Virus record (IMG/VR): IMGVR_UViG_3300032083_001406
Span: 1,617-65,616 of that record
Direction: 5' to 3' (one strand)
Source: a virus
Lineage: Duplodnaviria; Caudoviricetes
DNA length: 64,000 nucleotides
Shown: in pieces, positions 47,001 through 63,890 of the stretch
How positions within the stretch are numbered: position 1 is the stretch's first letter
How the letters are laid out: each line of letters begins with the position of its first letter
Made by a program: the position numbers and the translations under genes
The notes under the pieces: model-generated
Told to the model about the DNA's origin: nothing
The model's database searches: none
The model's input: the letters and a program-made list of their open reading frames with translations, nothing else

Positions 47001-50000
47001 CTATATCTGTATGAAATACTGTGTCTGCAAACATAGAACCTAATACATCTACTTGTCCTCTTTCATCGTAAGGCCAATGTTTATCGGCAGTATTGGTTTG
47101 ACCTCTAGAAACTAAATTGGAAGTAGCAGTTTTAGGTTTAAACTGATAAGTTTCGCTCAAGTAATTTATTAAGGATGTTCTTCCAGAATAAGTGTTTTGT
47201 TGATAATTAGGAGTGGAACCGATAATAATTCCAGCAATGTCATTAGAATAATTAAAATTCCCTAATGCTAATGAATTCAATTTGTAATATGGTTGCCCAA
47301 ACTTTTTAAATATATCTTCATCGGTACTGTGTGGATTAACGTGATTTAAAGGCACTACCCCAGTTGAAGTAATTTTAGGATGGGGGCTAGAAATAATTTT
47401 TCCTCCCCATAAATGCTTACCATTGACAAATCCTAATTCTTGAATATTATGACTTATAGTATAAATAGTTTCATCGGCACTATAATCAGCATCTCTATCT
47501 AAATGCAATTCAACTGAAGTATTATTATGAGTATTAGTTTTCAATATATATCTTAATATCCCCATAAAAACATAAGCCCCACTATCTAGTTTAAATATAG
47601 GTTCTCCTATTTTTAATGTTTTCCAACTATCTGCTCCAGTATTTGTTATTAAAATATTTTTTGAAATACTACTTCCTCTAGCGGCTAAAGTAACATTAGT
47701 AGATACTGCGGAATTATCACCAGTATTAGTAAATTTAGGAATTTTTCTCCCTAATGTAATAGGAATATATGGTGCTAATTCTATTTCAGTAATGCTATCT
47801 TTACTATTTACATTTACTATTTCAAAATCAATTAAAGTATTTACAGTATCAAAAGAAGAATTAGCCTCACTTCCTATCTCATCTTTGAATTTTGCTTGGA
47901 AAGCATTATCGTTATTAATAGATACAGGACTATTAATATGATAGCCAATTGCTTTTGGATTAGTATTGATACTACTTCCAACTAAATCATTTCCTTCTGA
48001 ACCATCAGACATAGTAATTTGCTTACCGCTTGTAAAGTAAACACCCTTTCCAGCAGAGCCAGTTAATGAAGTGGGATTAACAGTAGTTAAATGAGATGAG
48101 CCTAATGCTTTATTAAACATATAATTTTTATCTGTTTCCATATAAATTGCTTCGCTGTTTAATTTTGTCAAAGATGGTGTAATTACCAATCTTCTTTTTG
48201 AAGCACCATGAGTAGAAATACCAGTAACTTCACCAATATAACCGTTTTCGCTAAATATTCTTGTTCCTTCAACAGAAGGGTCATTATCAAATGTTTGTGC
48301 GCCTGAAATTTTAATATCGGTATCTATTTGAGTAGCATTTAAGGCAACAGAATGAGTAGTTCCTGCTTTTATATTTGCTAGAGTATTATACGGACTTAGG
48401 GTAGAATAAATAATATCTTCTGAAAAAGCAGTATCTTTATTAATAATTGGCCCAAATAATTTACTAATATCGCTACGACCATTTAATTCTACAAAGTTCT
48501 GTGAATCTTCTTTATAAGAACTTATCTTTTCTATTGTCCCTGTAAATCTTTCTACCTCAATAGAATACGAGCCTAACGAATATCTTAGCGAAGAGTCGCC
48601 TGAATAGGACTGAGAATTAGAACTTAATGTAATCAATCCATGTCTAGCATCAACCGCAGTAACAGTTGATTCTAAAGATTCCATATCTTTAGACTGAGTT
48701 TTAACATACAATTCATCAGTCCTTCCATCTAATAAATTAAACGTAGTTAGAATAGTATTGTCTTGATAATTATACGCTCTTCTTTGTAATGTTCCTGTTA
48801 GTGAAGTTAAACTAGTAGATGTAGTAAAAACAGATTCGGTTTCTAATCTACTGTATTCTTCAAACGTAATAGTAGTAGTGGTAATTGCACTACAAATAAT
48901 AATTCTAGTACCTATTCTTATTTCATCTCCTACATTAATAAAGTCCCGCACATCAGAATAATCAGTAACTATGTTATATTGCCTACTAGAAATATGGGAA
49001 CCTAATGTAACTTTCATATCAACAAATTCATTTAAATCTCCAGTAAATACTCTATGCCTAACTCGATATTTATCAAATTCAGTAATCTTTGTAGTTAGCA
49101 TTCTACTAGGATTAAGTATTTTAGTTTCACAATATCCGCCACGATTTCCAACAGATTGTTCTAATTTATTATCTAATACATTATCTAATACATTTACCTT
49201 TGTTGGAGAGTAGTCATAATGTAAGTATCTAATTGGGCCTTCTGTTAAAATAGTAGAAGTTCCGACGACTTTATCATCAGAATCCCTTCTAGCATTTGGA
49301 AATATCTTATCATAATCAGTATTAACATTCAAAACAGTATTTCCTTCATTTGAAGTATTAGAAACATCCAATGTTTTAAGATTATCAGTTAATGTTAATT
49401 GCATAGTATATTTACTATAATCTAATATTTTATTAGAAAATGCTTGTTCGGTAACAAAAACTCTTTGTTCTGAAAGATGGTCTACTGTTGTAGTAACACC
49501 ATCGGTCTTTTGAAGTCTTAAGTGGTATTTTGTATTGTGGTCTAGTTCTCCTTTTTTATTTAAAGAAGTATCTAATAAATAAAACAAAGGTGATGAAACT
49601 ACTAATGCTGCTTTTAATTCATTCTTAATTCCTGCCGAAAAAGCAATTGCTTTTGTAGTTTTAATTGGCCCTTTAAACACCATAAACTCAGTATCTTTAG
49701 GGATTTCTTTTCCTAAAGGCGGAGTAAATTCAAAAGCATCACCTACAACATCTTCTGTTATAATATCAGTAACTTTAGCAAAATGATGTTTTAAATGATT
49801 ATCTGAATGAACTAATACAAAGTAATAGTAATCACTATCATAATTTCCACCAGTCAATTGAATTCCAGTAGAAGTAACTGAATCAAAACATTTTATTCTA
49901 AAACCTTTTGTATTTTCTAAATTATATCTAGGCGTATTTGCACTAGAAGCACCTACTTCCACAAAAGTTTCACTTGATGTAGAATCATCTGGATAAATTA

Positions 50001-50124
50001 AAGTAAAGAGCCTTTCAGAATCAGTAAATGAACTGTTAGATTCTACTAAAGGATTAGTAGGAGTATTAAATCCTGTTGCACTACCGAATGTAGTTTCTCC
50101 TTTCTGAAATACTACGGTTGCCAT
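44044..50124 (-). CDS. very large tail tip/hub protein (2026 aa)
   Basis: position downstream of the tape measure gene; C-terminal hub-like motifs (NQITVYG, SINEKG, IKVGDII). Confidence 0.65.
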   Translation of the reverse strand: MATVVFQKGETTFGSATGFNTPTNPLVESNSSFTDSERLFTLIYPDDSTSSETFVEVGASSANTPRYNLENTKGFRIKCFDSVTSTGIQLTGGNYDSDYYYFVLVHSDNHLKHHFAKVTDIITEDVVGDAFEFTPPLGKEIPKDTEFMVFKGPIKTTKAIAFSAGIKNELKAALVVSSPLFYLLDTSLNKKGELDHNTKYHLRLQKTDGVTTTVDHLSEQRVFVTEQAFSNKILDYSKYTMQLTLTDNLKTLDVSNTSNEGNTVLNVNTDYDKIFPNARRDSDDKVVGTSTILTEGPIRYLHYDYSPTKVNVLDNVLDNKLEQSVGNRGGYCETKILNPSRMLTTKITEFDKYRVRHRVFTGDLNEFVDMKVTLGSHISSRQYNIVTDYSDVRDFINVGDEIRIGTRIIICSAITTTTITFEEYSRLETESVFTTSTSLTSLTGTLQRRAYNYQDNTILTTFNLLDGRTDELYVKTQSKDMESLESTVTAVDARHGLITLSSNSQSYSGDSSLRYSLGSYSIEVERFTGTIEKISSYKEDSQNFVELNGRSDISKLFGPIINKDTAFSEDIIYSTLSPYNTLANIKAGTTHSVALNATQIDTDIKISGAQTFDNDPSVEGTRIFSENGYIGEVTGISTHGASKRRLVITPSLTKLNSEAIYMETDKNYMFNKALGSSHLTTVNPTSLTGSAGKGVYFTSGKQITMSDGSEGNDLVGSSINTNPKAIGYHINSPVSINNDNAFQAKFKDEIGSEANSSFDTVNTLIDFEIVNVNSKDSITEIELAPYIPITLGRKIPKFTNTGDNSAVSTNVTLAARGSSISKNILITNTGADSWKTLKIGEPIFKLDSGAYVFMGILRYILKTNTHNNTSVELHLDRDADYSADETIYTISHNIQELGFVNGKHLWGGKIISSPHPKITSTGVVPLNHVNPHSTDEDIFKKFGQPYYKLNSLALGNFNYSNDIAGIIIGSTPNYQQNTYSGRTSLINYLSETYQFKPKTATSNLVSRGQTNTADKHWPYDERGQVDVLGSMFADTVFHTDIERTRILVESDKLIHRKNAIKNIDNSYHRLFLYINSDVLPYSSLRKDSLFNGTKDITNYNLHLIENTSIKDNTLDDNSGNRIKLQDINYQTVPISTSDFTNNIKRVGMMRLTEMCFDFLYNPFNPEKELESRIAASPNIDFHFFNNTSVGNIDVGATTTQHNSGDRNKITFTGSIALANGDKLIDDEGNLIGQVNNASTPTTSNIHTFSADVKYTSISGSNVVLSSGTIYKSVEALAWNPETPFKGENFLPAGRAINVSRKHLGAVMPDESKFFKTQGNGFDGSNPVSLPTDSEIILPFSKAGITGISGTTATTSECRVFGNMITSLDNDNDYYEGTMAVALNRYDIRDGGKYKLEKGNVSDVLTTGAEFAISPDNFFTVKSGNHFKDFTHVGDTSAENHADSIPFAVDGIILGFKCRLWIDTSSRTDNATIASSNGNLRKNTLDVDGKNEFLQFMDLTGCYLVMEKDAILGTTGTETGVTYMNERFPEDIVYVVSHEIDPSNHETHILITDKELTDDRAYRIMQPNEVCMYDFSPEEITFNKLSSRYTKVMDEDKTYNIKSSYLYQSGISNLHENEAFLSMYVMLDTDKQTTDDHLIIRDNTKIYSELFTGDNDYPLYATDGENGKKINLNVRTQEKTTTPAISNISKPFFCKGIVSLSQTFTIQVFDNLKITPTRACIGTTATIANETEDLINELLEENNIEFEMTNDDYPLFLAPNYQGVDLFSAINYLLEQKDMTLFEENEVFKIKNRNDATFYKGIVLNETGKYQIYDFEESKNMFNFYNQITVYGRNHKKTRKDIRSINEKGLKALEVFEDKLTTQEDVNKEASKLLRLHSAKNKKLKVTVGHENISQIKVGDIIGLEIPRENIPLNHYMVLQIEYLLTGLMVLELGKYSKGLEDRFAELLIDNKNINSKVRNQSFKESESLDFLEDMKVKGLRVLIRKKTFPTTGFPLGFSIPLNTETSPLGALGGSLSYTTLLDEELE

Positions 50125-51910: not shown

Positions 51911-53689
51911 TCACCCTAATGTTCTAGAAGAAGTTCTTCTGTTAATTTTATTATTTACCATGTTTCCAATCTTATCAGCAATACGTCTTAGTTCTGCATC
52001 GGAGGTATCTCTAGCATTAATTGTAATGTTTATAGTATTTCCTCCAGAGGAAGCGGCAACCATTTTCTTTGAATCTCTATTTGAATGAACTCTAGCACCT
52101 TTAGGTAAATTAACTAATTCTGGGCCTTTTTCTCCAACAACTGTCATTCCACCTTTAGCAACTCCACCTTCTGCCATAAATGGTAAATTACCTGTTATCT
52201 GTTTCATAAGCCATGCCCCAAACGCATACAAGGCGGCAAAACCTAAAGCAACAAGTAATACAGGCATTGCATAAATAGCAACCAATTGAGCAATCTGAAT
52301 AGCAAGAGTTTTTACAGCCCAAGCAATAAAATATATTTTAGCAAACTTTACTAATATTTTAAATGCATTTTCTCTGAATTTTTCACTAAATAATAATAGT
52401 CCAATATTGTCTATAACTGTATAGAATGTCCCAACTAATAAAGCACCTAAACCTTTAAGTGCTACTAAAGCCAAGTTCCACACTATTAATAATGCACCGT
52501 CTATTAGAGTCATTAAGTGTTCCAATACCGCTTCATAATCCCCTGTAATAAATGCTCCTATTAATCCAAAGAAAGCACCCACCATAGTTAGTGCAGTATA
52601 AAACATCTCAGTTATTAAATCAATCCCTCCAAAACTCTTGAATATTTCAAATACATCATATGCTGCTTTCATGAATACTAATAATCCCATAAAGACAAAC
52701 ATAGACATAATTAACATTTTGAATAAGAACTTAAAAACTACTCTTACTGTTTTTGCTAACTTTAACATGAATAGTTGGTATTTAATTGTCATTTTTCCAT
52801 AGAAAAGTACGGTGGCTTGCCAACCCCTCCTAATTAAATTAGTTTTCTTATCAAATTTTAACTGTTCTTTAATAGCCCTACCAATATTCTTAAGTTTACC
52901 TGTCATACTAATGAATCCACGTTCTCTAAAACCTACATTTTGAGCCGTTTTAAATACATTTTTTAATCTCTCTTTGCGAGTAACTCCGCCAGTAACTCTA
53001 CCTTTTTTCTCTGTAAGAGCATCAAGTGTTATTTGAGCCTGTTTTTGACCTTGAGGCGTTGATAATGCTTCTTTACCAAAAGTTTCTTCCATTCTTTTAG
53101 CCTTCATAAAAGCGTTTTGACGTTCTTTAAATAAATCCCTTTGTACGTTTCCTTTCTTAATCAATTCATCTAAACCTGCGGCCATCGCTTCATTAGCCTT
53201 TGCCCCTTCAAGAACTGCTTTAGCATATGCAAGAGTTCCTTTTATTGCGCTTTCTTGTTCGGTGGTATATGCAGTAATATCGGCAAGTTGTTCTTCAAAA
53301 AATGGGTCGCCTTTTAAAAGACTTTCTTCTGCTCTTTTTTTTATTTTATCTAGTTCATCCAGTTCTTTCTTTAAAGTTTGAAATGCCGATACTTGCTTTA
53401 CTACTGTCTGATTTGAGGCTGCTTGTGCGGCCATATTATCTTTTGACCGCTTTTCCATCATTCCCAGAATACCTAGATATGCTCTGAATTTGTTTTGAAT
53501 AGCCCACAATGGACTTCCCGAAACTAATCGACTGAAAATATTCCAATTTCTACCTGCGCCTGCAAAACTGTTAGCGGATTGAAGAATTGTTTTTGTAAGT
53601 CCTTCAAATTCAATTGGGGCTCTTTCAACAACTGTATTTAAATCACCAATAGCACTTGCTAAGTTCTTTATTTCAGTTTCTGCGCCTAT
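51911..53689 (-). CDS. tape measure protein (frame is open 60 codons upstream of the track start; probable ATA start)
   Basis: helical with hydrophobic segments; MAEGG...VVGEKGPELV; follows the tail chaperones. Confidence 0.75.
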   Translation of the reverse strand: MGAETEIKNLASAIGDLNTVVERAPIEFEGLTKTILQSANSFAGAGRNWNIFSRLVSGSPLWAIQNKFRAYLGILGMMEKRSKDNMAAQAASNQTVVKQVSAFQTLKKELDELDKIKKRAEESLLKGDPFFEEQLADITAYTTEQESAIKGTLAYAKAVLEGAKANEAMAAGLDELIKKGNVQRDLFKERQNAFMKAKRMEETFGKEALSTPQGQKQAQITLDALTEKKGRVTGGVTRKERLKNVFKTAQNVGFRERGFISMTGKLKNIGRAIKEQLKFDKKTNLIRRGWQATVLFYGKMTIKYQLFMLKLAKTVRVVFKFLFKMLIMSMFVFMGLLVFMKAAYDVFEIFKSFGGIDLITEMFYTALTMVGAFFGLIGAFITGDYEAVLEHLMTLIDGALLIVWNLALVALKGLGALLVGTFYTVIDNIGLLLFSEKFRENAFKILVKFAKIYFIAWAVKTLAIQIAQLVAIYAMPVLLVALGFAALYAFGAWLMKQITGNLPFMAEGGVAKGGMTVVGEKGPELVNLPKGARVHSNRDSKKMVAASSGGNTINITINARDTSDAELRRIADKIGNMVNNKINRRTSSRTLG

Positions 53690-54433: not shown

Positions 54434-56080
54434 TCACCCCTGTAAAATCCAATGTGTTCTAACTTCACAAGTATTTAGATTTCTTGGCATTATAGTTCCT
54501 TCGATAGTAATTGCCCCTTTATCATCTGGAATTGTAATATTTGCAGAACTTAAGAAGTAATCTTGGAACTTTAGTAGGATTTGCTCATTAAGAGTTCCGT
54601 CTGGAGCATTCTTATCAAATTGTAAAGTAACAAGATTACTTGCCCCTTCTTCTGTTTGGTCGAGAAGTTCTTCAAATAATTGATTATCTGTAATCATAGC
54701 AGTAAATGAAATTTCATAAGTTCTTTGAGCAGGGATAGCCTCCTTAATTCCTTTATCCCCTGCACCAATAAATCTTTTATCTTGTAAGTTATTATTGATA
54801 GTTAATGTCATGTTTGTAATCTTAAGGAATTGTTGTCCGAAGATAGTGAATGAACCGCTTGAAAAGAAGAAAGGTTCAAGAGATTCTTCTCCTGTTGCCG
54901 TTAATGTATTTGAACCACTTCCAAAGTTAAACAAATCAGCATTATCATCTACACCTGCACGACCTTCATAAGCCTCACCTGTCTTTAATTTATGAACTGC
55001 TCTAGAGTTTAAATCTAAAGTCATCTTAACTTCTTCATTTTCATTTGCTGTCATTGTTAAAGTATTTACTCGATTACCTCTAGCAATACGAACAAAGTTA
55101 TGTGATTCTGTTGCTAATGTCATATCTCCCGTTCTATGTGGAGTAGTCGCTTCTAGTTTACTTATATTTTGTTCTAATCCAAACGAAGGTAATTCTTCAC
55201 CATTTGCTTCTCCAAATGTATATTTAATTGGGTTTGTTAGAACACCGCTTGCATTATATTCTGGTAATGTTAATAGTGCCATATGTGCAGCAGTATCTTG
55301 ATTTGCTACTGGTGGAATCATAAAAGTAGAATCCTTTGCAGTTCTATAAAAGATTGGCCCTGTTGATGTAAAACCTGTAATGTTATCACCAAATGCCTTT
55401 GCGGCTGCATTTTCTCCAATATCCAAATAATGAACATTGTTTGCATGAGCAGTATACGGTGGGGTTGCAGGGTCTAAAGAAGAACTTCCAGTAAAGGTTG
55501 CATTAATTTGTGTGCATTTACCTAAAGCATAATAAAGCCATGTTCCTTGATTAGCCATTAATGCTAAATTGCCACCACTAGCAGTTTCAATACCTTTGTA
55601 TTGATGAGTAAAGTTTCTTGAGCCACCAAGAGAAAGATTTAATTGTTTCATTTCAACTTCTAGATTAGGGAACGCTGATGTTTCTAAAAGACCTAACCAA
55701 TTATCTGCACTTAATCGTGCAATAGAACCTGTAAGAGTAGAAGGAGCAGGTGCGCCATATCCTCTAATAACAATAAAATCTGTTGCATCCTGAATTGTTC
55801 CAATAGTATGAGCAGGTGAAATAGTGAATGCAGTTTCGCTATTAGCAGTAATAACGTGAGTAGAAAGAGGTTCAGTTGGAGAAACATCATGGTCGTATAA
55901 ATCAATAACACAACCAACGTATAGATTTTGTACCATTCTTACGTTATCTGTCCAAAGAGCATCAGCAACTAAATTAGTCGCTGTTGAGCCTGAATTATTT
56001 AATATGATTTTTAAATCCAATTCTGGTATCATTGTTAAACTTGCGCCGCTTCCTAAAAATATATCTGTGTTTATTGCCAT
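54434..56080 (-). CDS. major tail tube protein with insertions
   Basis: WLYYALG, ELPSFGLE, GNRVNTLTM, LTINNNL, RTYEISFT; upstream of the chaperones. Confidence 0.75.
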   Translation of the reverse strand: MAINTDIFLGSGASLTMIPELDLKIILNNSGSTATNLVADALWTDNVRMVQNLYVGCVIDLYDHDVSPTEPLSTHVITANSETAFTISPAHTIGTIQDATDFIVIRGYGAPAPSTLTGSIARLSADNWLGLLETSAFPNLEVEMKQLNLSLGGSRNFTHQYKGIETASGGNLALMANQGTWLYYALGKCTQINATFTGSSSLDPATPPYTAHANNVHYLDIGENAAAKAFGDNITGFTSTGPIFYRTAKDSTFMIPPVANQDTAAHMALLTLPEYNASGVLTNPIKYTFGEANGEELPSFGLEQNISKLEATTPHRTGDMTLATESHNFVRIARGNRVNTLTMTANENEEVKMTLDLNSRAVHKLKTGEAYEGRAGVDDNADLFNFGSGSNTLTATGEESLEPFFFSSGSFTIFGQQFLKITNMTLTINNNLQDKRFIGAGDKGIKEAIPAQRTYEISFTAMITDNQLFEELLDQTEEGASNLVTLQFDKNAPDGTLNEQILLKFQDYFLSSANITIPDDKGAITIEGTIMPRNLNTCEVRTHWILQG

Positions 56081-56110
56081 GCTTAATCTCTCCTTTCCTT
56101 TACAAACTTA

Positions 56111-56620
56111 CTAAGGGAGTGTTAATGCGAATCTTTTTGCTTCAATGTTTAATTTATATCCGAATAATCGTTTTGCTCGGTCATTACTTTCGCTTCTAGA
56201 ACCTAAAAAGATTTGATTGAATTTACTTCCATCACTTGCGGTATATCCACGACGACCTCGCTCAATTGCATGACGGGCAATCAAGTATAAAGCCCTTAGC
56301 CTATCTCGGCCAAAATTTGAGTCCGTTCCTGCTCTTTCATCATGAATAGTCCTAATGTGCATAGTAAAACCATATGTTTCATGTCTAACATCAAAATGAA
56401 CAGTAGGGTATTCTATGCTTTGACTATCCTCAAAGAAGATAATTACATCCTTTGAAGATAAATCATATCTCATTCCTTTTCCTTTTTCTAATGTTCTAAC
56501 ATCAACAAAATTAGGAGTAGCAACATGGGAAGAACTAACTGTTCCAGCCGATTGTAGCGTTGAAGCAGATGATGACCAATTGCTAGAAACTAAATCAATT
56601 AAAAGGCTGACTTCATCAAT
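56111..56620 (-). CDS. tail terminator/completion protein (probable ATT start at 56620)
   Basis: frame open from GGAGGT-N6-ATT GAT GAA GTC; upstream of the tail tube gene. Confidence 0.6.
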   Translation of the reverse strand: MDEVSLLIDLVSSNWSSSASTLQSAGTVSSSHVATPNFVDVRTLEKGKGMRYDLSSKDVIIFFEDSQSIEYPTVHFDVRHETYGFTMHIRTIHDERAGTDSNFGRDRLRALYLIARHAIERGRRGYTASDGSKFNQIFLGSRSESNDRAKRLFGYKLNIEAKRFALTLP

Positions 56621-56817
56621 AACGATACCTCCTTTGTAAATTCTTTTGAAATATAATTTGCATATGCTTTTCCAGCATTATCCATTAATTCTTCTTCACT
56701 AAAACTAACATCATAGCCTAGTATCATAGATAATTCTTTCATTGCTAATTGTCTCTCTTGTTCTATTTTAAGAAACTCTTGGAATTTCTTAGTGCTAATA
56801 TTAATATTTTTAAGCAT
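56599..56817 (-). CDS. hypothetical protein
   Basis: ORF within the structural operon. Confidence 0.55.
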   Translation of the reverse strand: MLKNINISTKKFQEFLKIEQERQLAMKELSMILGYDVSFSEEELMDNAGKAYANYISKEFTKEVSLLMKSAF

Positions 56818-56821
56818 AATA

Positions 56822-58126
56822 TCAACCCAAGAAATAAACAATATCCGATTTACCAGATAAAATATCCAACGCTTCCTTTCTTAATATATCATATTTTTCT
56901 TTCAATGATATATTACCGCCAGTTTCAGCAATTAGAATAGTTTGGTCATCATGTCTTAGTATTTCAGCCGCCACTAATTTAGTAGCCGCTTCATGAATAG
57001 CCGCAGGTACTCTATTATCTCCTGCAATATATGAAACAATAATAGAATTTTGAGTATGATAAGGATAATCTTGTAAGAAGAATACTTTACCTTCTTCTCC
57101 AATAGTCCAGAAAGAACCTAATCTTTTAAGGTTCTGCTTATCTGTAAATCCACTTACAGTACAAAGGGTAGGGATAGAAGTATTTGTTGCAGTAAATAAA
57201 ACAGTATCGCTCATAGAACCAGTAGTAGTATGACTTAGAACAACAGTAGTTGAATCAGTAATAGAACTTATTGTTGCAGATGAATTGATATTTGTCCCTG
57301 CAACTGCCATTCCTACAATTAATTTACTAGAATCCTGAACTGTTAAGTTTGTTGTAGTTCCTGATGCTGAACAAGTTTGTTGAACTTTTACTTTAATTGT
57401 GCAATCAGAACCATCTTCTCCTGCTAATAAAGAAGAAATAAATATCTCTTTTGAGTTCTCAGTATTCTTATGAGCATAAAAGAAATCTGAAATGTTTCTA
57501 CTATTAACTATTAATTCTTTAGCCGCAGTAGCACCAGTAAATTGTGCAGTTGGTGAAGGGAATTGTTCATTTACTAAAGAAACAATTTCATTAGCAGTTG
57601 TCTTTTCTCCAAAAGAAGTATTAAATTCTGTGTTTTGTAAAGAACCTGCATCTTCTGAAAGCATTTCAAAAGAAGTTCCGCTATTTGGTAATTCTAATAC
57701 TATTGAATAAATATCTCTATAATTTTCAAGTAGTTCTATCTTCGCTTGAGCAGATGCTAATTCAATATAACTACTTCCTTGCCAAACCTGAAGAGAAACA
57801 ATCTTTCTTACCTTCATCATTGAAAGTTGAATATAGCCTACATATCCTCCATAATATGCTCTTGCTGGATGCCTAATGAATTCAAAGTTATGATATTCAT
57901 TTTGAGTAATTATTGGTCGGAAGGAACGCTTTACTTTGTCGTCTATCATCCCTTCTACACGCTTAATGATAGAACCGACCTGTGATTGAGAGGGGTTAGT
58001 AGAGTCTGAAAATGCTGAAACTTGAAGTAAATCAGAAACTGCGCCTTTATCAGTATAAAAACCAGTACCGCTTGAGTAGTCTACATTGATTGTTGTATAA
58101 TCACTTGGCGAGCGAACTGTTCCCAT
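56822..58126 (-). CDS. head-tail adaptor (gp15/gp6-like) with inserted beta domain
   Basis: YT....V..LL N-terminus; VSYIAG...VPAAIHEAATKLVA. Confidence 0.7.
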   Translation of the reverse strand: MGTVRSPSDYTTINVDYSSGTGFYTDKGAVSDLLQVSAFSDSTNPSQSQVGSIIKRVEGMIDDKVKRSFRPIITQNEYHNFEFIRHPARAYYGGYVGYIQLSMMKVRKIVSLQVWQGSSYIELASAQAKIELLENYRDIYSIVLELPNSGTSFEMLSEDAGSLQNTEFNTSFGEKTTANEIVSLVNEQFPSPTAQFTGATAAKELIVNSRNISDFFYAHKNTENSKEIFISSLLAGEDGSDCTIKVKVQQTCSASGTTTNLTVQDSSKLIVGMAVAGTNINSSATISSITDSTTVVLSHTTTGSMSDTVLFTATNTSIPTLCTVSGFTDKQNLKRLGSFWTIGEEGKVFFLQDYPYHTQNSIIVSYIAGDNRVPAAIHEAATKLVAAEILRHDDQTILIAETGGNISLKEKYDILRKEALDILSGKSDIVYFLG

Positions 58127-58130
58127 AATA

Positions 58131-59909
58131 TCACCTCAATGCTCTTTTAATAACTCTTACGTTCTTTCTGAATTTATTAATCATAGTATTGAATTTACCT
58201 AATAAATTTACAGGTACTCTTGGATTATCTTCATCAGAAGAAACCTTTTTACTTCTTGACCTTCCAGTTCTTAAAAGTGCTTTCATGCCTTGATTGAACT
58301 TTCTATAATTCATAACTTCCCATTTACTTCTATCAACATCGAATGTTATTTTGTTTATTTGTGTTAAGTCATTAATTGGATTTTGTAATTTAATATCCAA
58401 CCAATGAAGTAGTTCTGTAAGGGTTTTATCATCAACAGTATTTCCTTCTTTTGTTGCGTCATCAAATAAAGTACCTAGAGTTCCTTTTTTACCATCGGCT
58501 CTGATATATTCTGTATCTCTTATTACTTTTTGTTCAGTATATTCTTCAAGCATATCTTGATAAAAGGAATCTATTATTTCAGTACTTTCGTCTTTATTCA
58601 TTAATTTTAATTGACTAAGCGGCCTTACTCTATCTATTTCTGAAGTTATTTTTAGATACTCTTCCTGTAATTTATCTTTTTTACTTTCATCTTTATTATT
58701 AATTACTTCTTCTCGTTTTTCTTTTTGCTTAGCCTGAAGTTTTGTCTTATTAAAGCCTAATTTTCTCATCATAGTACCAACAACAACTGATTGAGATGCT
58801 TTTATAAATTCGTTAATTTTATCTCTATTTTCCCTAGCCCAACTATCATAAGTTTGTTCTGGATATTTATTATTAATTTCTTTTATTTCTTCATCACTTG
58901 CTTTTTGAGTTTCCTTTTCTTTTTTCTTTTTCTTCTTCTCTTCTATTTTTTTATGTAGAGGTTGTAAGAATACTTCTACCATGTTCGTCTTAAATGCCCC
59001 ACCATTGAAATAGGCAAGAGCCTCTTGAATACTTTCAAACTCATCGTAATCAAGCATTCTTTTAATCTGCTCAACATTCTGTGTATCAAGGTCATCTTCT
59101 TCTTTTAATCCGAAGGTTTCTTTTTTAGTTTTCTTTTTAGAAATAGAACCATAGGCAGTTTTAACTCCCGTTCCTTTAGCAGTAGCAGAACCAGTAGTAT
59201 CTCTTATTCCTACTAACTCTTTAAGTTTCTTTTCTTTAACATCTAATAATGCCTCATCAAAAACAATAGATGTAAGTTCACTTCCATCAAAGTATGCTTT
59301 AGTAGCACTTTTAAAATATTCAAATATTTCGTTATCACTACCTAATCCTTTTGAAAGTTCTGATAATATTTCTTTTTCTTTAGGAGTAGCACCCATTGGT
59401 TGTTCTTCGGAAACGACTATTTTTCTATCTTTACCTTCACCTTCTTGAGTAATATCTCTTTGCATTTCTCTTTGAATAGGTTGTATTTCAGTAATAAAAG
59501 CATCATCAAGTAACTTATTTAATGGCTCATCTTGAATTAATTTAACAAATATACTTGGCATACCGCCTTTAGCAGTAGTATCTTCACCAATGTTTCTAGG
59601 TTTAATTTGCTTCTTACTAACACTTGCATCAGTCATTAACTCGTTGAAGGTTTCTTTTAAGAGTTTTAAGTATCTTTCTTTAGTTTCTGCATCTGCGAGT
59701 TCTTGATTTAATGATACTGGGGGCTTTACCAAATTAGAAATTTTAAGATATTCTCCATTTAAATCTGGAGAACCACTAGTAGGTTTCTTATTCTCAATAT
59801 TATAGAATAAGAAATTATAATAGTTTCTTAATAAAAAATTCCTATTAACTTTAAGGGTATTTTTATCCTTAGTCTTAATAGTAAATTCAGTTTGCCCTTC
59901 ATTACTCAC
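58131..59909 (-). CDS. large charged hypothetical protein
   Basis: K/E-rich and helical; probable GTG start at 59909. Confidence 0.65.
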   Translation of the reverse strand: MSNEGQTEFTIKTKDKNTLKVNRNFLLRNYYNFLFYNIENKKPTSGSPDLNGEYLKISNLVKPPVSLNQELADAETKERYLKLLKETFNELMTDASVSKKQIKPRNIGEDTTAKGGMPSIFVKLIQDEPLNKLLDDAFITEIQPIQREMQRDITQEGEGKDRKIVVSEEQPMGATPKEKEILSELSKGLGSDNEIFEYFKSATKAYFDGSELTSIVFDEALLDVKEKKLKELVGIRDTTGSATAKGTGVKTAYGSISKKKTKKETFGLKEEDDLDTQNVEQIKRMLDYDEFESIQEALAYFNGGAFKTNMVEVFLQPLHKKIEEKKKKKKEKETQKASDEEIKEINNKYPEQTYDSWARENRDKINEFIKASQSVVVGTMMRKLGFNKTKLQAKQKEKREEVINNKDESKKDKLQEEYLKITSEIDRVRPLSQLKLMNKDESTEIIDSFYQDMLEEYTEQKVIRDTEYIRADGKKGTLGTLFDDATKEGNTVDDKTLTELLHWLDIKLQNPINDLTQINKITFDVDRSKWEVMNYRKFNQGMKALLRTGRSRSKKVSSDEDNPRVPVNLLGKFNTMINKFRKNVRVIKRALR

Positions 59910-60559
59910 ATTAACCACTTAGCCCAAGCCGCACCTTTTTGAATTGCTGAACCTAATCCTAATCCGCTTTGTGGCGGTTCATAACTTGTTTGGCCTGTTT
60001 GTGGGTCAATCCAATATGGTCGGCCATAACCATCAGTTCCCGAAGGAGGAACAGGATAACCCGAACCATTACTTACTGCGCCTTGCATTTGTTGATATTG
60101 TTGAGTTTGTCCTGTTAATCCAGCAATAGCCATACCTGCTGTTGGGGCGGCCATACCTCCTGAGAAGCCTTGAGATTCTAGGTACTGCTGTTTTGCCATC
60201 TTTCTTTGATTAACTATTTCTGTGTTAATTGCCGAATCTAATAAGTTCTTTAAATCTAAGTCAATATTTTCTTGAGTAATCCTTTCAAACTCTCTCATAC
60301 TTTCTGAATCGACTTTCATTCTGTTAGTAGTAGAATCTTGAACAAATGCTAATTTACCTAACATTTGACTCATTACTCTTTCCAATACATCTTCCATTAG
60401 TTTTTCTAATGATTTAAAGAATTGTTCTCCATGATATTGAAAGAACTCTTCAACGTGATTTTCTTGCAAAGATAACAGATTATTTACTGTTTTGAAATTT
60501 GCTTCGCCTTGTTGTTGAACTGCTCCTAAAACCGTTCCATTACTTGTTCCCCATACCAT
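59906..60559 (-). CDS. coiled-coil, Q/G-rich protein with WW-like motif and amphipathic C-terminus
   Basis: GRPYWIDPQTGQTSYEPP; LGSAIQKGAAWAKWLM. Confidence 0.6.
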   Translation of the reverse strand: MVWGTSNGTVLGAVQQQGEANFKTVNNLLSLQENHVEEFFQYHGEQFFKSLEKLMEDVLERVMSQMLGKLAFVQDSTTNRMKVDSESMREFERITQENIDLDLKNLLDSAINTEIVNQRKMAKQQYLESQGFSGGMAAPTAGMAIAGLTGQTQQYQQMQGAVSNGSGYPVPPSGTDGYGRPYWIDPQTGQTSYEPPQSGLGLGSAIQKGAAWAKWLM

Positions 60560-60561
60560 GT

Positions 60562-61233
60562 CTATTCCTCCTTTTGATTAACTAAAAAGTCTAACTTCAA
60601 AGTAATTGCTTTTAGTTCCGTTGTTAGCCGCAATACTTCGGCCTCCTTCGACTCATCTTCTGATAGCGTGGGTGGCTTTATAATATATCCTACTGACGAC
60701 AGGGCGATAATATCTTCCATAGATAAAGCATAAATTGGCCCACTTTTCATTAATTGAGGCATTTTAGGCTTAGGAATAAATCTTTTGAAATCTAATCCGT
60801 GTTCATCTGCTAATATTTCTTGTTGTAGCATTTCTAATTGTTTATGATAAGCGGCGTGTTTAGGACAATAAGTTCCTCTTAATGGCCTTCCACGTTCTAC
60901 TCTATCTAAAGGAATAGGTGGTCGCAAATAATCTCCTGCTTCCCAAATGTGATGCATTCCACATACTACGCATCTTTCTTTAAGATTAAATTTATATCCA
61001 TACTTAATAAATAATAGTTTCTTCTTCTCTGGAACTAATACCTTATGTAGTTCTTTTAGTTTCTTTTTAGGTTTGAAATTATCAAACTTATATTCTTCTA
61101 TTACTCCACTTGCTCTTGCCTGTTGTAATTTAGGCAAAAATCTATTTGGTGCGTTCTGACCAATCGTATTACCGACTGGTGTTCCATTTGTTCCTACTTG
61201 CTGTATAATGTTGTTCTGATACATAATAATCAA
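60562..61233 (-). CDS. Zn-binding protein with C-terminal coiled coil
   Basis: CVVCGMHH...YCPKH; RPPIP. Confidence 0.6.
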   Translation of the reverse strand: MIIMYQNNIIQQVGTNGTPVGNTIGQNAPNRFLPKLQQARASGVIEEYKFDNFKPKKKLKELHKVLVPEKKKLLFIKYGYKFNLKERCVVCGMHHIWEAGDYLRPPIPLDRVERGRPLRGTYCPKHAAYHKQLEMLQQEILADEHGLDFKRFIPKPKMPQLMKSGPIYALSMEDIIALSSVGYIIKPPTLSEDESKEAEVLRLTTELKAITLKLDFLVNQKEE

Positions 61234-61892
61234 TAGTCCTTTATCATTGTAAACACACCTTGATAAACTGCTTCGGGTTCTGATTTAGCCGATACAATAT
61301 ATTTGTGTGTTGGAATTCCTACATCATTTAACTTTTGCATTCCATATTTAAATGGTTCAAAGATAGGATGCTTTTCAATAGGTAAATCACTTTTATGTTT
61401 TTCTCCCCATATATCATACTTATTAGCCCAAATAGAAACTGCTAATGGATAGTCTGCTTCTTTCTTCTTTTTACCAGTAGGCCATCTTTCACTAACAATT
61501 GTATCTACTAAAAACTTCCATGCTACTTGATGGTCTAAATTACCACCTTTATCTAAATGTCTATGGTCGATTAAAAAAATAATATATTTTACTTTTCTAG
61601 TTTGCATATCTTTAGCCCATTCTTTCCAGTATATTGCTTCTCCACCAATATCAGAAGTTTTTAAAGTATTCATCTCACCATCTAATTTAATTGACTTTCT
61701 AGTGGCTCTATGACGACCAACAGTTCTTTTCTGTATTGTTGGCACTTCTCCCCTAGTTCTTAATTGATGGTGTAAAGTAGTTTTACCTACCATTGTTGCA
61801 CCATAGACACCAAAGTTAATAGCATGAATTTTCTTATAAAAACCAATTACTGCTTCTGTAACAACAACTGCAAATCCTGCTAGTAATGACAT
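61230..61892 (-). CDS. Arf/Sar-like small GTPase
   Basis: G1 GATMVGKTT, G2 RTVG, G3 DIGGE..W, IIFLID, G4 WANKYD, G5 VSAK; hydrophobic N-terminal helix. Confidence 0.88.
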   Translation of the reverse strand: MSLLAGFAVVVTEAVIGFYKKIHAINFGVYGATMVGKTTLHHQLRTRGEVPTIQKRTVGRHRATRKSIKLDGEMNTLKTSDIGGEAIYWKEWAKDMQTRKVKYIIFLIDHRHLDKGGNLDHQVAWKFLVDTIVSERWPTGKKKKEADYPLAVSIWANKYDIWGEKHKSDLPIEKHPIFEPFKYGMQKLNDVGIPTHKYIVSAKSEPEAVYQGVFTMIKDY

Positions 61893-61901
61893 ATAATAAC
61901 C

Positions 61902-62117
61902 TCAATGCCATAATGATTTCAAATAACTAATTAAAGAACCCATAATATTGATGTCAAAGACACCCATAATATTCCCAATCAGAAATGCCGACAATGTTGC
62001 ACAACTGCCCCAAAATATCAGTCTCATCTTAACAAAAAACATATCCGCAGAATGCGCTCTTTGCTGATTATAAGCATAATCAGAATCGCTAAAGCCTAAC
62101 CAATCTGATACTACCAT
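61902..62117 (-). CDS. small membrane protein
   Basis: LIFWGSCATLSAFLIGNIMGVF transmembrane segment plus amphipathic tail. Confidence 0.7.
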   Translation of the reverse strand: MVVSDWLGFSDSDYAYNQQRAHSADMFFVKMRLIFWGSCATLSAFLIGNIMGVFDINIMGSLISYLKSLWH

Positions 62118-62125
62118 TTACTCAC

Positions 62126-62524
62126 CTATTGCAATTGGGTCAAGAAATCAGAAGAAACTACGTTTTCTGTTTCATATGACTGTGCAATAGGCGGCATTCC
62201 AGTATAAGGTGAAAGGTTGTATGATTTAGCAGTATCTTGAAGTTTCTTTCGTTGTTCTTCATCTCTTGCCATTCTAGCCCAATAAGCAGTAATTTTACGG
62301 TCTAATAGCCAAAGTTCAATCTTATCATTTAATGATAAGTCAAATAATGCTTTCATGCACATAATAGTTCCTACTGTCATAAGACCGAATAGAACTCCAT
62401 GAGCAATTGGTGGATAAGGGAATGCTGAACCGTATTCTGCATAGAAGAATACATTAGCACCGCTTACTGTTCCAACAAAAAGAATAGTCATAACTAATCG
62501 AGTATCTTGATTTAATGCTGGCAT
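62126..62524 (-). CDS. two-transmembrane protein with charged cytoplasmic tail
   Basis: LVMTILFVGTVSGANVFFY and IAHGVLFGLMTVGTIMCM segments. Confidence 0.7.
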   Translation of the reverse strand: MPALNQDTRLVMTILFVGTVSGANVFFYAEYGSAFPYPPIAHGVLFGLMTVGTIMCMKALFDLSLNDKIELWLLDRKITAYWARMARDEEQRKKLQDTAKSYNLSPYTGMPPIAQSYETENVVSSDFLTQLQ

Positions 62525-62533
62525 TATATCACC

Positions 62534-62836
62534 TCAAGCGAATTCAACAGAAATTTCTGCTGTTGAAGAACCTGCTTCTGTAATCTCCAAAAAGATTCCA
62601 CCACGACATAATACGCCATGCATATCGTATTCAAGATTATAATGCCCGTTTACGGCATTAGTAATTCTAGCCACTTCTGTACCGCTATTATCTTGTCCAT
62701 CAAAAACTTTAACGGTTACTGCATCTCCACCAGAAATAATCAAATTAGCATGAATGCTAATTAATAACGATTGTCCTGTATTTACGATTGCGCTTGCGCC
62801 TAAAACTCCGCTTGAACGACATACTTGATTTGCCAT
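62534..62836 (-). CDS. small beta-rich virion protein
   Basis: jelly-roll-like strand pattern; GGTGAT SD; TTAAGTA promoter upstream (~62872-62878). Confidence 0.55.
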   Translation of the reverse strand: MANQVCRSSGVLGASAIVNTGQSLLISIHANLIISGGDAVTVKVFDGQDNSGTEVARITNAVNGHYNLEYDMHGVLCRGGIFLEITEAGSSTAEISVEFA

Positions 62837-62887
62837 GTTATCACCTTCACTTTGAGCAGAGTGCCAACCCTACTTAATACTTGGGAT

Positions 62888-63250
62888 TCAATCTTCACTT
62901 AAAGCAGATTTCTTCGTTGTTTTTGAAGGTTTCTTAGCCTTTGGCTTAGGTTTAGCCTTTGGTGATTCCTTCTTTGGTAGAAGTAAATCACACAAATCTT
63001 CTGCTGAACCTAATTCTTGGCCTAGTTCTTCAAAACCAATCTTTAATAATTTCTCATTAAGTAGTAGAATGCCTTCTCTATCAGATTCTTCAAATGTAAA
63101 CATTAAGTTTTTATCTGATAAACCAATGATAGCACGACGAAGAGGGATAGAAGCGGAATCATTCTGAGTAATCTCAGTCATCCGTTCTAATCCTTCAATC
63201 ACACACCTACTGCCTAAGCGACTGTTTTCAGTCAATTTGACAGAAACCAT
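62888..63250 (-). CDS. hypothetical protein with Lys/Pro-rich tail
   Basis: GAGGTGAT SD; downstream of the capsid gene. Confidence 0.65.
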   Translation of the reverse strand: MVSVKLTENSRLGSRCVIEGLERMTEITQNDSASIPLRRAIIGLSDKNLMFTFEESDREGILLLNEKLLKIGFEELGQELGSAEDLCDLLLPKKESPKAKPKPKAKKPSKTTKKSALSED

Positions 63251-63259
63251 TTAATCACC

Positions 63260-63616
63260 TCAAAGTTGTCCGTGAACTCTAATAGTTATTGGAGAACCGT
63301 CTAAAGAAGCGTCAGAATTCGCTAATTGTGCTTCAATACCAGTAGTACCATCTTCTACGTTTATTTCCAAATAAAGAGTATCTCCAGTTGATGCACCATC
63401 TACTAGATTTAAACTATGTTTTACTAAACCCCCAGGAATTCTGGTAATAAACCCACAATTAATAGTTTTAAGCCCCAATGATGCAGCAGTAATAACTATT
63501 CCACCAGTAGTATATGTTTGAATGTCAATTGAAGCATCAACGACGTATTCATCACCTAATACTCTAGGTCTAGTGAAACCTTTATGGTTTGCCACTAATG
63601 TTACTGTATGTGCCAA
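63260..63616 (-). CDS. putative head decoration/minor virion protein
   Basis: YTTGG..ITAASLGL; downstream of the capsid gene. Confidence 0.55.
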   Translation of the reverse strand: MAHTVTLVANHKGFTRPRVLGDEYVVDASIDIQTYTTGGIVITAASLGLKTINCGFITRIPGGLVKHSLNLVDGASTGDTLYLEINVEDGTTGIEAQLANSDASLDGSPITIRVHGQL

Positions 63617-63626
63617 TTAAAACACC

Positions 63627-63890
63627 TCATTGCCCAATCGCTTGGAAATAGACAACATCACCGCTAACGCAATGAATCGCTACATCACCACTAGCAAGTG
63701 GTAAATTAGCGTTAATAACCGCCGCCGCCGCTTCTTCTGCTGAACCCTTATGTGTAAAAACTAAAGATTCTACCAAAGATAGCCCTGTTTCAATATTTCC
63801 GTCTGTTGAATCAGTAGTGGTTTGCCCACAAACTAATTTTCTGTTTCCTTCTAAATTCATTTCTAAATGTATAACTGTTGCAAATGCCAT
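63627..63890 (-). CDS. putative head decoration/minor virion protein
   Basis: IETGLSLV...YFQAIGQ; beta-rich; directly after the capsid gene. Confidence 0.55.
   Translation of the reverse strand: MAFATVIHLEMNLEGNRKLVCGQTTTDSTDGNIETGLSLVESLVFTHKGSAEEAAAAVINANLPLASGDVAIHCVSGDVVYFQAIGQ

What the first reader, a model, noticed from the sequence alone, without database searches (positions are those of the whole stretch)
59906..62524. Five-gene membrane module built around an Arf/Sar-like small GTPase inside the virion operon
Seen: between head genes and the head-tail adaptor lie, tightly coupled, a 2-TM protein, a 1-TM protein, a small GTPase with complete G1-G5 motifs and Arf-like features (DIGGE..W, IIFLID, WANKYD, N-terminal hydrophobic helix), a Zn-binding coiled-coil protein, and a Q/G-rich protein with a WW-like motif and an amphipathic end. 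Established: Arf/Sar GTPases use an N-terminal helix to bind and bend membranes and recruit coats, and small GTPases are rare in tailed viruses. The switch-II Gln is replaced by Glu. No holin or endolysin is recognisable in the window. Inference: a GTPase-timed membrane-remodelling system for egress/lysis, or for building a membrane-associated assembly site.
Basis: partly seen in the sequence, partly recalled or inferred. Interest (0 to 1): 0.86.

Follow-up and report, generated by a model that had tools for sequence, protein, structure and literature searches.

The report
Magrovirus Arf-like GTPase membrane cassette
A tailed virus of the abundant ocean archaea Marine Group II carries a very divergent Arf-type GTP switch with a greasy membrane anchor, always next to two small membrane proteins and two orphan proteins, which makes the block an untested candidate for how such viruses act on, or break out through, the host membrane.

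Summary
Five closely spaced minus-strand genes (59906-62524) encode a 2-TM protein, a small TM protein, a small GTPase with complete G1-G5 boxes and a hydrophobic N-terminal helix, a Cys/His protein and a Gln/Gly-rich protein.

The window is a magrovirus. The order is kept in all 80 close relatives wherever the locus is not cut. It is also kept in a second magrovirus clade whose GTPase is about 33% identical, and in a third element with other neighbours.

The GTPase is Arf-like by fold and by profile: the best solved relative is Asgard ArfR 8OUN, then Arl8. It forms a small family found almost only in viruses: 76 hits among 1.84 billion representatives. It does not itself reach Pfam's Arf cut-off.

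Function is untested. I favour a late-acting membrane GTP switch, most likely for egress. Zinc ligands are not kept in the third clade. The WW-like motif is below Pfam's cut-off and clade-specific.

No searchable paper holds both 'magrovirus' and 'GTPase'. This scan has already reported the same cassette on many other magrovirus genomes, so this is a replicate with some added detail.

The parts
62126..62524 (-). 132-aa membrane protein: two hydrophobic helices (10-28, 43-61) followed by a charged helical tail
   Evidence: ORF; hydropathy and conservation; found in 78 of 80 related loci. The protein at the same position in clades 2 and 3 has the same build, but homology to it is not shown (hhalign probability 6%).
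61902..62117 (-). 71-aa membrane protein: conserved N-terminal 30 residues, then one long hydrophobic stretch (33-63)
   Evidence: found in 78 of 80 loci. A protein of similar size and topology sits at the same position in clades 2 and 3; homology is not shown (hhalign probability 2%).
61230..61892 (-). 220-aa Arf-like small GTPase: hydrophobic N-terminal helix (about 2-22), G1 GATMVGKT, G3 DIGGE, G4 NKYD, G5 SAK
   Evidence: Motifs invariant in 32 of 32 sequences. AlphaFold2 model pLDDT 69.5, pTM 0.67. VIA-align Z 12.2-12.5 to Arl3, Arl8, Arf6 and transducin alpha. Viral-only profile hits Asgard ArfR 8oun_A at E 1.7e-5. It is the best conserved gene of the region, median 76% identity in 69 diverged loci.
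60562..61233 (-). 223-aa Cys/His protein (C88, C91, C123, H126), mostly helical C-terminal half. The likely true start is the ATG at 61224, 5 nt after the GTPase stop.
   Evidence: Homologous to the gene that follows the GTPase in clade 2 (hhalign 97.5%, E 5.6e-12) and in clade 3 (HMM E about 1e-42). No recognisable fold: pLDDT 66.6, best Z 4.7 among 48,161 chains.
59906..60559 (-). 217-aa protein: helical N-terminal half, Gln/Gly-rich C-terminal half with a WW-like GRPYW motif, and a conserved Gly-rich, Trp/Lys-bearing C-terminal end
   Evidence: Central domain related to the clade-2 protein at the same position (hhalign 86%, E 4.9e-6). The WW-like motif is in 47 of 47 clade-1 proteins and 0 of 72 clade-2 proteins.

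Best explanation
The five genes encode a virus-made complex at the host membrane, built around a GTP switch and produced with the late (virion) genes.

Shown:
- The GTPase is an intact, strongly conserved Arf-like G protein with a hydrophobic N-terminal helix.
- It is always encoded right after a 2-TM and a 1-TM protein and right before two soluble orphan proteins.
- The block keeps its order in three diverged clades whose surrounding genes differ.

Inferred:
- The N-terminal helix holds the GTPase on the cytoplasmic face of the host membrane beside the two small membrane proteins.
- The nucleotide state, set or read by the Cys/His protein and the Q/G-rich protein, decides when the membrane proteins act.
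- The most likely job is to breach or reshape the membrane at the end of infection so that virions get out. The 2-TM protein with its charged tail would play a holin-like part and the GTPase would act as timer.
- The Glu in place of the catalytic Gln in this clade would make hydrolysis slow or partner-dependent.

I put about 0.75 on 'membrane-associated GTP-switch complex' and about 0.35 on the egress job in particular. The confidence given below is for the whole statement, egress included.
For: GTPase integrity and selection:
- G1-G5 are invariant in 32 of 32 homologues.
- It has the highest median identity of 13 neighbouring genes: 76% against 37-72%, apart from one gene found in only 20 loci.
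- The fold is Ras-like and closest to Arl3, Arl8, Arf6 and G-alpha, Z about 12.5, rmsd 2.6-2.8 over 133-147 residues.

Arf link:
- A profile of the viral clades alone ranks Asgard ArfR 8oun_A first (E 1.7e-5), then four Arl8 entries (4e-4 to 8e-4), then H-Ras (3.8e-3).
- The same profile matches, at hhalign probability 99.8% and E 3.7e-30, a set of metagenomic relatives. For P0159, P0170, P0184, P0185 and P0193 of that set, Pfam Arf is the top family and above its cut-off (5 of the 10 relatives scanned).
- The Trp seven residues after the switch-II Gln/Glu aligns with the Trp of ArfR and Arl3 (alignments).

Membrane association:
- Three adjacent genes carry hydrophobic helices.
- They are the only cluster of adjacent ORFs with hydrophobic segments; 11 of the window's 102 non-overlapped ORFs have such a segment.
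- The GTPase N-terminus has mean hydrophobicity 0.68 and moment 0.20.

Module behaviour:
- Clade 1 keeps the order in 80 of 80 loci where the loci are not cut.
- In clade 2 the same order is seen, with the families found in 79-84 of 84 loci.
- In clade 1 the block lies after the capsid gene. In clade 2 it lies upstream of terminase, portal, protease and capsid genes.
- In clade 3 it lies beside glycosyltransferases and a serine recombinase.

Late co-expression is suggested by the same strand and tight spacing with virion genes.

Context from papers (passages read):
- The egress machinery of archaeal tailed viruses is uncharacterised (PMC10791045).
- A cellular euryarchaeal small GTPase with an N-terminal helix, ArvA, drives membrane vesiculation together with a Zn-ribbon protein encoded in the same operon (PMC10927574).
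Against: - There is no functional datum of any kind.
- None of the five proteins matches a holin, lysin or other lysis family in PHROGs or Pfam.
- The two small membrane proteins are not demonstrably homologous between clades (hhalign 6% and 2%).
- The block sits among virion genes, which fits an assembly or virion role equally well.
- The window GTPase does not reach any Pfam or NCBIfam small-GTPase cut-off on its own, and its model is only of middling confidence.
- Variable tagged genes are inserted between the GTPase and the Cys/His gene in 27 of 67 loci, so strict translational coupling of that pair is not required.
- The Cys/His ligands are lost in clade 3.
- RNA-library contigs that cover parts of the block may be DNA carry-over and come partly from relatives.
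Confidence: 0.35

Rival explanations
1. Membrane-bound assembly platform. The GTPase and its membrane partners mark a site on the host membrane where proheads or packaging complexes are nucleated. The precedent, recalled and not from any call, is T4, where prohead assembly starts at the membrane.
For: The block lies inside the morphogenesis gene block in both tailed clades: after the capsid gene in clade 1, and before terminase and portal in clade 2. Spacing with the virion genes is tight.
Against: Its position relative to the head genes is not conserved between clades. In clade 3 the held flanks (up to 8 kb each side, 86,947 bases in all) show no capsid, portal, terminase, protease or tube homologue. 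No haloarchaeal tailed virus in the phage collection has the GTPase, so head assembly in related viruses does without it.
Confidence: 0.2
2. Viral vesiculation system. This would be an analogue of the cellular ArvA-ArvB-ArvC machinery that buds vesicles from the host membrane, for virion or DNA export, for decoys, or to hijack vesicle traffic.
For: It shares with ArvABC a small GTPase with an N-terminal membrane helix and a Cys-rich zinc-type protein encoded downstream in one operon, in a euryarchaeal setting (PMC10927574, passages).
Against: No match to OapC/ArvC (PF09845) was found in the whole 65.6-kb record. No Pfam family at E up to 1 was found for the Cys/His protein. No DUF2073-like protein was listed for the five proteins scanned. 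The two membrane proteins and the Q/G protein have no counterpart in ArvABC. Homology of the viral GTPase to ArvA was not tested, because no ArvA sequence was available from a tool.
Confidence: 0.12
3. Virion-borne entry (ejection) proteins. The small membrane proteins and the Q/G-rich protein would be packed in the head and form a channel in the next host's membrane, as ejection proteins of some podoviruses do (recalled, not from any call).
For: The genes lie between head and neck or tail genes. There are hydrophobic segments and a low-complexity protein. Weak PHROG hit of the Q/G protein to a 'virion structural protein' family (E 0.012).
Against: A GTPase switch has no obvious use inside a virion. 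The PHROG hit is not significant. None of the five starts with the W-x-x-I-L-K leader that marks the presumed capsid cargo genes inserted next to them.
Confidence: 0.1
4. Host take-over or exclusion. A membrane GTPase signalling unit that changes host envelope properties, such as superinfection exclusion or S-layer and glycan handling, rather than releasing virions.
For: In clade 3 the block lies next to GT4 and GT2 glycosyltransferases, and all clades keep the membrane proteins.
Against: Exclusion genes are usually early genes, whereas this block is co-oriented and packed with late genes. The glycosyltransferase neighbourhood is seen in one clade only.
Confidence: 0.08

Closest known systems
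Arf family small GTPases, including Asgard ArfR (GerdArfR1, PDB 8OUN), Arl3, Arl8 and Arf6
   Same: Ras-like G domain with an N-terminal membrane helix. Switch II is D-x-G-G-[Q/E] with a Trp seven residues later. It is the best structural tie and the best sequence match among solved structures. Intermediate relatives pass Pfam Arf.
   Different: The window protein does not reach Pfam's Arf cut-off. Glu replaces the catalytic Gln in this clade. The N-terminal helix is hydrophobic rather than amphipathic. There are inserts around switch I and after G3. It is virus-encoded in a euryarchaeal virus, whereas ArfR is reported as almost exclusive to Asgard archaea (preprint 10.1101/2024.02.28.582541, passages). 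No phylogeny was made here.
SR-beta (signal recognition particle receptor beta subunit)
   Same: An Arf-related GTPase held in the membrane by a hydrophobic N-terminal segment (recalled). One distant relative is labelled this way by its source (P0193).
   Different: Pfam SRPRB gives only 13.6 bits against a cut-off of 25. There is no SR-alpha-like partner nearby.
ArvA-ArvB-ArvC (OapABC), the vesiculating GTPase operon of Euryarchaeota
   Same: A small GTPase with an N-terminal membrane helix plus a zinc-type protein encoded in the same operon. It acts on the cell membrane (PMC10927574).
   Different: No OapC match and no SepF-like ArvB. The viral block has two membrane proteins and a Q/G-rich protein instead. 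GTPase-to-ArvA homology was not tested.
Phage holin/antiholin lysis cassettes
   Same: Small proteins with one or two TM helices and a charged tail, encoded with the late genes. No cell-wall enzyme would be needed in a host without murein (inference).
   Different: No sequence match to any lysis family. No known holin system is run by a GTPase (recalled).
Rab/Ras/Ran GTPases of giant eukaryotic viruses
   Same: They are the nearest viral structures in BFVD.
   Different: None reaches E 0.001. They are recent captures from eukaryotic hosts (recalled), with a different subfamily, host domain and gene context.

Membership tests
Ras-superfamily small GTPase | G1 (GxxxxGK[ST]), G3 (DxxG), G4 (NKxD) and G5 (SA[KT]) boxes | tested here: met
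   All are invariant in 32 of 32 aligned homologues. G1, G3 and G4 are also invariant across 18 sequences down to 22% identity.
Ras-superfamily small GTPase | Ras-like alpha/beta G-domain fold | tested here: met
   Model pLDDT 69.5. 338 of the best 500 Foldseek PDB matches have E <= 0.001, and all of the 50 listed are G-alpha or Ras. VIA-align Z 11.8-12.7.
Ras-superfamily small GTPase | Reaches a curated family cut-off (Pfam or NCBIfam) | tested here: not met
   MMR_HSR1 17.4 against 21.9, SRPRB 13.6 against 25, Ras 13.2 against 21.6. TIGR00231 23.7 against 42.5.
Arf family | Sequence closer to Arf than to other small-GTPase families | tested here: inconclusive
   Directly, Arf is not among the window protein's Pfam hits. 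By viral-only profile, ArfR 8oun_A scores E 1.7e-5, Arl8 4e-4 and H-Ras 3.8e-3. By transitivity, hhalign gives 99.8% to relatives that pass Pfam Arf. The margins are small.
Arf family | N-terminal amphipathic helix | tested here: inconclusive
   A helix at residues 3-24 is present in the model. It is hydrophobic with a low moment: residues 2-19 have <H> 0.68 and muH 0.20; clade 2 has 0.53 and 0.15.
Arf family | Switch II DxGGQ with catalytic Gln and a Trp seven residues later | tested here: inconclusive
   The Trp (W92) is nearly invariant and aligns with the Trp of ArfR and Arl3. The Gln is Glu in all 32 clade-1 sequences but is Gln in most clade-2 and clade-3 members.
Arf family | Interswitch toggle that couples nucleotide state to helix release | not testable with these tools
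   Needs GDP- and GTP-bound structures. The switch I region of the model has pLDDT below 50.
Arf family | Placement inside the Arf/ArfR clade in a phylogeny with Ras, Rab, MglA, ArfL, SR-beta and G-alpha | not tested
   No reference sequences could be brought in from a tool.
ArvABC (OapABC) vesiculation operon | ArvC/OapC Zn-ribbon protein (PF09845) next to the GTPase | tested here: not met
   No match in the six frames of the 65.6-kb record, while the control found it in Haloferax volcanii and Methanosarcina acetivorans. The Cys/His protein has no Pfam hit at E up to 1.
ArvABC (OapABC) vesiculation operon | ArvA-type GTPase | not tested
   No ArvA sequence was obtainable from a tool.
Holin (for the 132-aa and 71-aa proteins) | Small size, one or more TM helices, charged C-terminal tail | tested here: met
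   The feature is generic and proves little.
Holin (for the 132-aa and 71-aa proteins) | Match to a known holin family, or adjacency to an endolysin | tested here: not met
   Only non-significant PHROG hits of unknown function (E 0.0058 and 0.046), no Pfam hit, and no lysin among the 16 neighbouring proteins scanned.
WW domain (for the 217-aa protein) | Pfam PF00397 at or above its cut-off, with two signature Trp | tested here: not met
   21.3 bits against 26.9, matching only profile positions 10-31. The motif is absent from 72 of 72 clade-2 homologues.
Zinc-binding protein (for the 223-aa protein) | Four conserved Cys/His ligands | tested here: inconclusive
   C88 and C123 are invariant and H126 nearly so in 34 sequences of clades 1 and 2, with the second Cys shifted. 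In clade 3 the C-P-x-H site reads S-P-D-L or similar.

The most novel reading that the evidence does not exclude
The cassette is the missing release machine of archaeal tailed viruses. An Arf-type GTPase, anchored in the host membrane, times and triggers holin-like small membrane proteins. The cassette is portable between unrelated mobile elements of marine archaea. A second strand of this reading is that Arf-type membrane switches, thought to be nearly confined to Asgard archaea and eukaryotes, circulate in viruses of Euryarchaeota.
Probability: 0.25. Interest if true: 0.9.

Novelty: new variant of a known kind. Interest (0 to 1): 0.66.

Why it matters
[quoted passage not shown] How any archaeal tailed virus leaves its cell is an open question (PMC10791045, passage).

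A conserved, virus-encoded Arf-like membrane switch gives that question a concrete set of genes. These can be expressed and assayed in model archaea even though the natural host is uncultured.

It also widens the known range of Arf-like GTPases beyond Asgard archaea and eukaryotes, if a phylogeny confirms the placement.

The value of this particular report is limited because the scan already reported the same cassette on many other magrovirus genomes.

Tried and rejected
- **Complex prediction.** GTPase plus the Cys/His protein, with GTP and Mg riding along. The verdict was 'no answer' (score 0.00, mark 0.32), so it counts neither for nor against binding.
- **Fold of the Cys/His protein.** Model pLDDT 66.6. 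The wide VIA-align search found nothing at Z 5 or more among 48,161 chains, so no fold can be named. This does not show that the fold is new.
- **ESM Atlas.** Look-ups of the Q/G protein and the Cys/His protein gave best scores of 0.82 and 0.79. Both are below the level at which the tool says hits are usable.
- **PDB search with the clade-1-only GTPase profile.** The best E was 0.19, not significant. Only broader profiles reached significance.
- **Clade-1 HMMs against clade-2 loci.** The 2-TM, 1-TM and Q/G genes gave 0, 0 and 1 of 84. Homology of the two membrane proteins between clades stays unproven.
- **Clade P0138.** No relative was found in viral contigs. P0132 had none in viral contigs either and was then found in metagenome contigs.
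- **Cellular genomes.** One locus among 185,579 species genomes, a 12.2-kb contig in a MAG labelled Maricaulis. I take it for a mis-binned viral contig; that is an inference.
- **Cluster look-up of ten distant relatives.** It gave almost no names.
- **The 434-aa protein as head-tail adaptor.** No PDB or phage-record match, so the label stays unverified.
- **Hallmark genes in clade-3 loci.** tblastn with nine hallmark or tail proteins found none in 86,947 bases held. Only short flanks were held, and the three records could not be searched, so this shows nothing about the rest of those elements.
- **RNA libraries.** Contigs of three metatranscriptome runs from three studies cover parts of the block at 90-99% likeness. 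One 766-nt contig spans the 1-TM gene, the 2-TM gene and the start of the upstream gene. The tool warns that DNA may be present in such libraries and that contigs show no level or strand. I treat this as a weak hint of transcription only.
- **Literature.** The first search asked for either term and was uninformative. The search for both terms found 0 papers. 'Poseidoniales' + 'virus' + 'GTPase' found 3 papers, which by title and abstract start concern Asgard archaea and the origin of eukaryotes and do not mention such a gene. 'Archaeal viruses' + 'small GTPase' found 14 papers, and none of the 13 listed describes a virus-encoded one by title or abstract. The word GTPase occurs 0 times in the main texts of PMC5434244, PMC11706807, PMC10160649 and PMC8651126. 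Supplementary gene tables of these papers were not seen and may list the gene. JGI's automatic annotation already calls some homologues 'GTPase SAR1 family protein'.
- **Rejected reading: chance ORFs or a decayed gene.** Rejected because of the invariant G boxes and the conservation.

Full report
**What the window is.** The 220-aa protein has hundreds of near relatives in marine viral contigs and metagenomes, one of them named 'Poseidoniales virus YSH_150918'. The record is a 65.6-kb linear IMG/VR virus, estimated 71% complete, and the window ends where the contig ends. In longer relatives the genes just upstream of the window's end are a DNA ligase-sized ORF, a prohead protease-scaffold-like ORF and a 444-aa capsid protein (function read from the sequence and). 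This matches the published magrovirus layout, ligase inside the structural block included (PMC5434244, passages). So this is a magrovirus, a tailed virus assigned to Marine Group II archaea.

**The observation.** Five minus-strand ORFs lie at 62126-62524, 61902-62117, 61230-61892, 60562-61233 and 59906-60559. Spacers are 8, 9, -4 and 2 nt, and most starts have a strong GAGGTGAT-type ribosome-binding motif. The Cys/His protein probably starts at the ATG 5 nt after the GTPase stop. The same packing continues upstream to 63890 and downstream to 56599, so the five genes are part of a longer late operon rather than a separate unit.
- Hydropathy finds two helices in the 132-aa protein, one long hydrophobic stretch in the 71-aa protein, and a hydrophobic N-terminus in the GTPase.
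- These are the only adjacent ORFs with hydrophobic segments; 11 of the window's 102 non-overlapped ORFs have such a segment.
- The G boxes are complete and invariant in 32 of 32 homologues, with Glu at the switch-II position.

**Synteny.**
- Clade 1: among 80 loci whose GTPase is 73-98% identical, the five genes keep order and strand. Counts are 80, 78, 78, 74 and 67, and all misses are at loci cut by a contig end.
- The GTPase is the best conserved gene of the neighbourhood: median 76% identity in the 69 loci below 85%, against 37-72% for 11 other genes and 83% for one gene found in only 20 loci.
- Clade 2: a second clade of viral contigs has a GTPase about 33% identical. It belongs to magroviruses with a capsid protein 44-48% identical to clade 1. 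The order is a 2-TM protein of 184-218 aa, a 1-TM protein of 81-95 aa, the GTPase, a 293-329-aa Cys/His protein, a 190-217-aa Q/G-rich protein and an extra small 2-TM protein. These families occur in 79-84 of 84 loci.
- Profile-profile comparison between the two clades gives 100% for the GTPase, 97.5% (E 5.6e-12) for the Cys/His protein and 86% (E 4.9e-6) for the Q/G protein. It gives only 6% and 2% for the two membrane proteins, and controls between non-corresponding pairs give 0.1-6%.
- Flanks differ. In clade 1 the block follows the capsid gene and four small genes. In a 98%-complete clade-2 genome it follows a 2310-aa protein and precedes terminase, portal, protease and capsid genes.
- Clade 3: a third clade from metagenome contigs of 27-81 kb has the same order with an acidic 250-aa insert. 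There it lies next to GT4 and GT2 glycosyltransferases, a TFIIB-like protein and a serine recombinase. Three of 11 loci were inspected in detail.

**What the GTPase is.**
- On its own the window protein reaches no curated cut-off.
- A profile search of 1.84 billion representatives found only 76 proteins at E <= 0.001, many of them fragments, and no bulk of ordinary Ras or Arf proteins.
- No cellular genome holds a close copy, except one probably mis-binned contig. Neither PHROGs nor 50,697 phage records contain a match. The nearest viral structures are giant-virus Rab/Ras proteins, none at E <= 0.001.
- The model (pLDDT 69.5) has the Ras-like fold. Its top VIA-align matches are tied within one Z unit: Arl3 (Z 12.5, rmsd 2.6, 133 residues), Arl8 (12.4), transducin alpha (12.4), Arf6 (12.2) and many G-alpha chains.
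- A profile of the three viral clades alone ranks Asgard ArfR (8oun_A, E 1.7e-5) first, then Arl8 entries, then Ras. 8OUN is GerdArfR1, an Arf-family protein with an N-terminal membrane helix (preprint 10.1101/2024.02.28.582541, passages).
- Five of ten more distant relatives scanned have Pfam Arf as their top family, above its cut-off. The viral profile matches the alignment that contains those five at 99.8%, E 3.7e-30.
- I therefore call it Arf-like, but I do not file it as a member of the Arf family, because no tree was made and the margins are small.
- The N-terminal helix is more hydrophobic and less amphipathic than the word 'Arf-like' suggests. It may be a fixed anchor, as in SR-beta (recalled).
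- The Glu for Gln is a clade-1 trait, since most other members have Gln.

**The partners.**
- The Cys/His protein has no Pfam, PHROG or structural match. Its ligands are kept in clades 1 and 2 but not in clade 3.
- The Q/G protein shares only its central helical domain across clades. The WW-like motif is sub-threshold and clade-specific.

**How it most likely works, and rivals.** What is shown is a conserved, portable block that pairs a membrane-tethered GTP switch with small membrane proteins and is encoded with late genes. From that I infer a membrane complex whose action is gated by nucleotide state. I favour virion release because:
- no egress system is known for archaeal tailed viruses (PMC10791045);
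- the host probably needs no wall-degrading enzyme (inference);
- the 2-TM protein has a holin-like build;
- the block's position relative to the head genes is not fixed, and in clade 3 no virion genes are seen in the held flanks.

Rivals are a membrane assembly platform, an ArvABC-like vesiculation unit (no OapC match), virion-borne entry proteins, and envelope modification or exclusion. None can be excluded without experiments.

**Novelty.** No paper in the searchable library holds both 'magrovirus' and 'GTPase'. Four key papers never use the word in their main text; their supplements were not seen. Automatic JGI annotation already labels some homologues 'GTPase SAR1 family protein'. This scan has reported the same cassette on many other magrovirus genomes with the same reading.
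- the clade-3 context;
- the loss of the Cys/His ligands there;
- the clade-limited WW-like motif;
- the hydrophobic rather than amphipathic helix;
- the insertion hot spot for tagged genes inside the cassette (27 of 67 loci);
- RNA-library contigs over the block.

Noticed in passing
Related loci L003-L080, between the GTPase and the Cys/His gene (and between the 1-TM gene and the GTPase); also genome C1:135-1353, just outside the window: Variable, mutually unrelated genes are inserted inside the cassette: in 27 of 67 loci after the GTPase and in 7 of 76 before it. 32 of 34 such ORFs of 55 aa or more start with the same M-(x)-W-x-x-I-L-K leader behind a GTGATTATTATG start context. Five small genes at the left end of this record carry the same leader; no ORF inside the window itself does. 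The scan has read this leader elsewhere as a possible capsid-loading tag.
   Followed up: partly
L165, L170, L174 (metagenome contigs of 27-81 kb): The same cassette lies in an element with GT4 and GT2 glycosyltransferases, a TFIIB-like protein and a serine recombinase. No magrovirus head or tail homologue was found in the flanks held. What kind of element this is remains unknown.
   Followed up: partly
window 51911-53509 (-): A 532-aa protein with a block of about six to ten hydrophobic segments (residues 261-427) lies downstream of the tail-tube-like gene. It is possibly a tape-measure-like or membrane-inserting tail protein.
   Followed up: no
window 44044-50124 (-); G002 (L180 6015-12062, L181 8997-15929): Giant ORFs of 2026 aa in the window and of 2015 and 2310 aa in a clade-2 magrovirus. 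In clade 2 the 2310-aa one directly precedes the cassette.
   Followed up: no
window 54434-63890 (-): Nearly every late gene is preceded by a GAGGTGAT-type Shine-Dalgarno motif 4-8 nt before the start.
   Followed up: partly
L182 (12.2-kb contig of a MAG labelled Maricaulis sp.): This is the only hit for the GTPase among 185,579 species genomes, at 74% identity. It is most likely a magrovirus contig binned into a bacterial genome.
   Followed up: no
window 41788-41946 (+): A 52-aa ORF with a very hydrophobic segment (Kyte-Doolittle 3.07) sits at the junction between the plus-strand and minus-strand gene blocks.
   Followed up: no
window 62650-63629: A 1487-nt contig from one metatranscriptome library covers the small genes just upstream of the cassette, at about 93% likeness. 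The tool says depth cannot rank genes.
   Followed up: no
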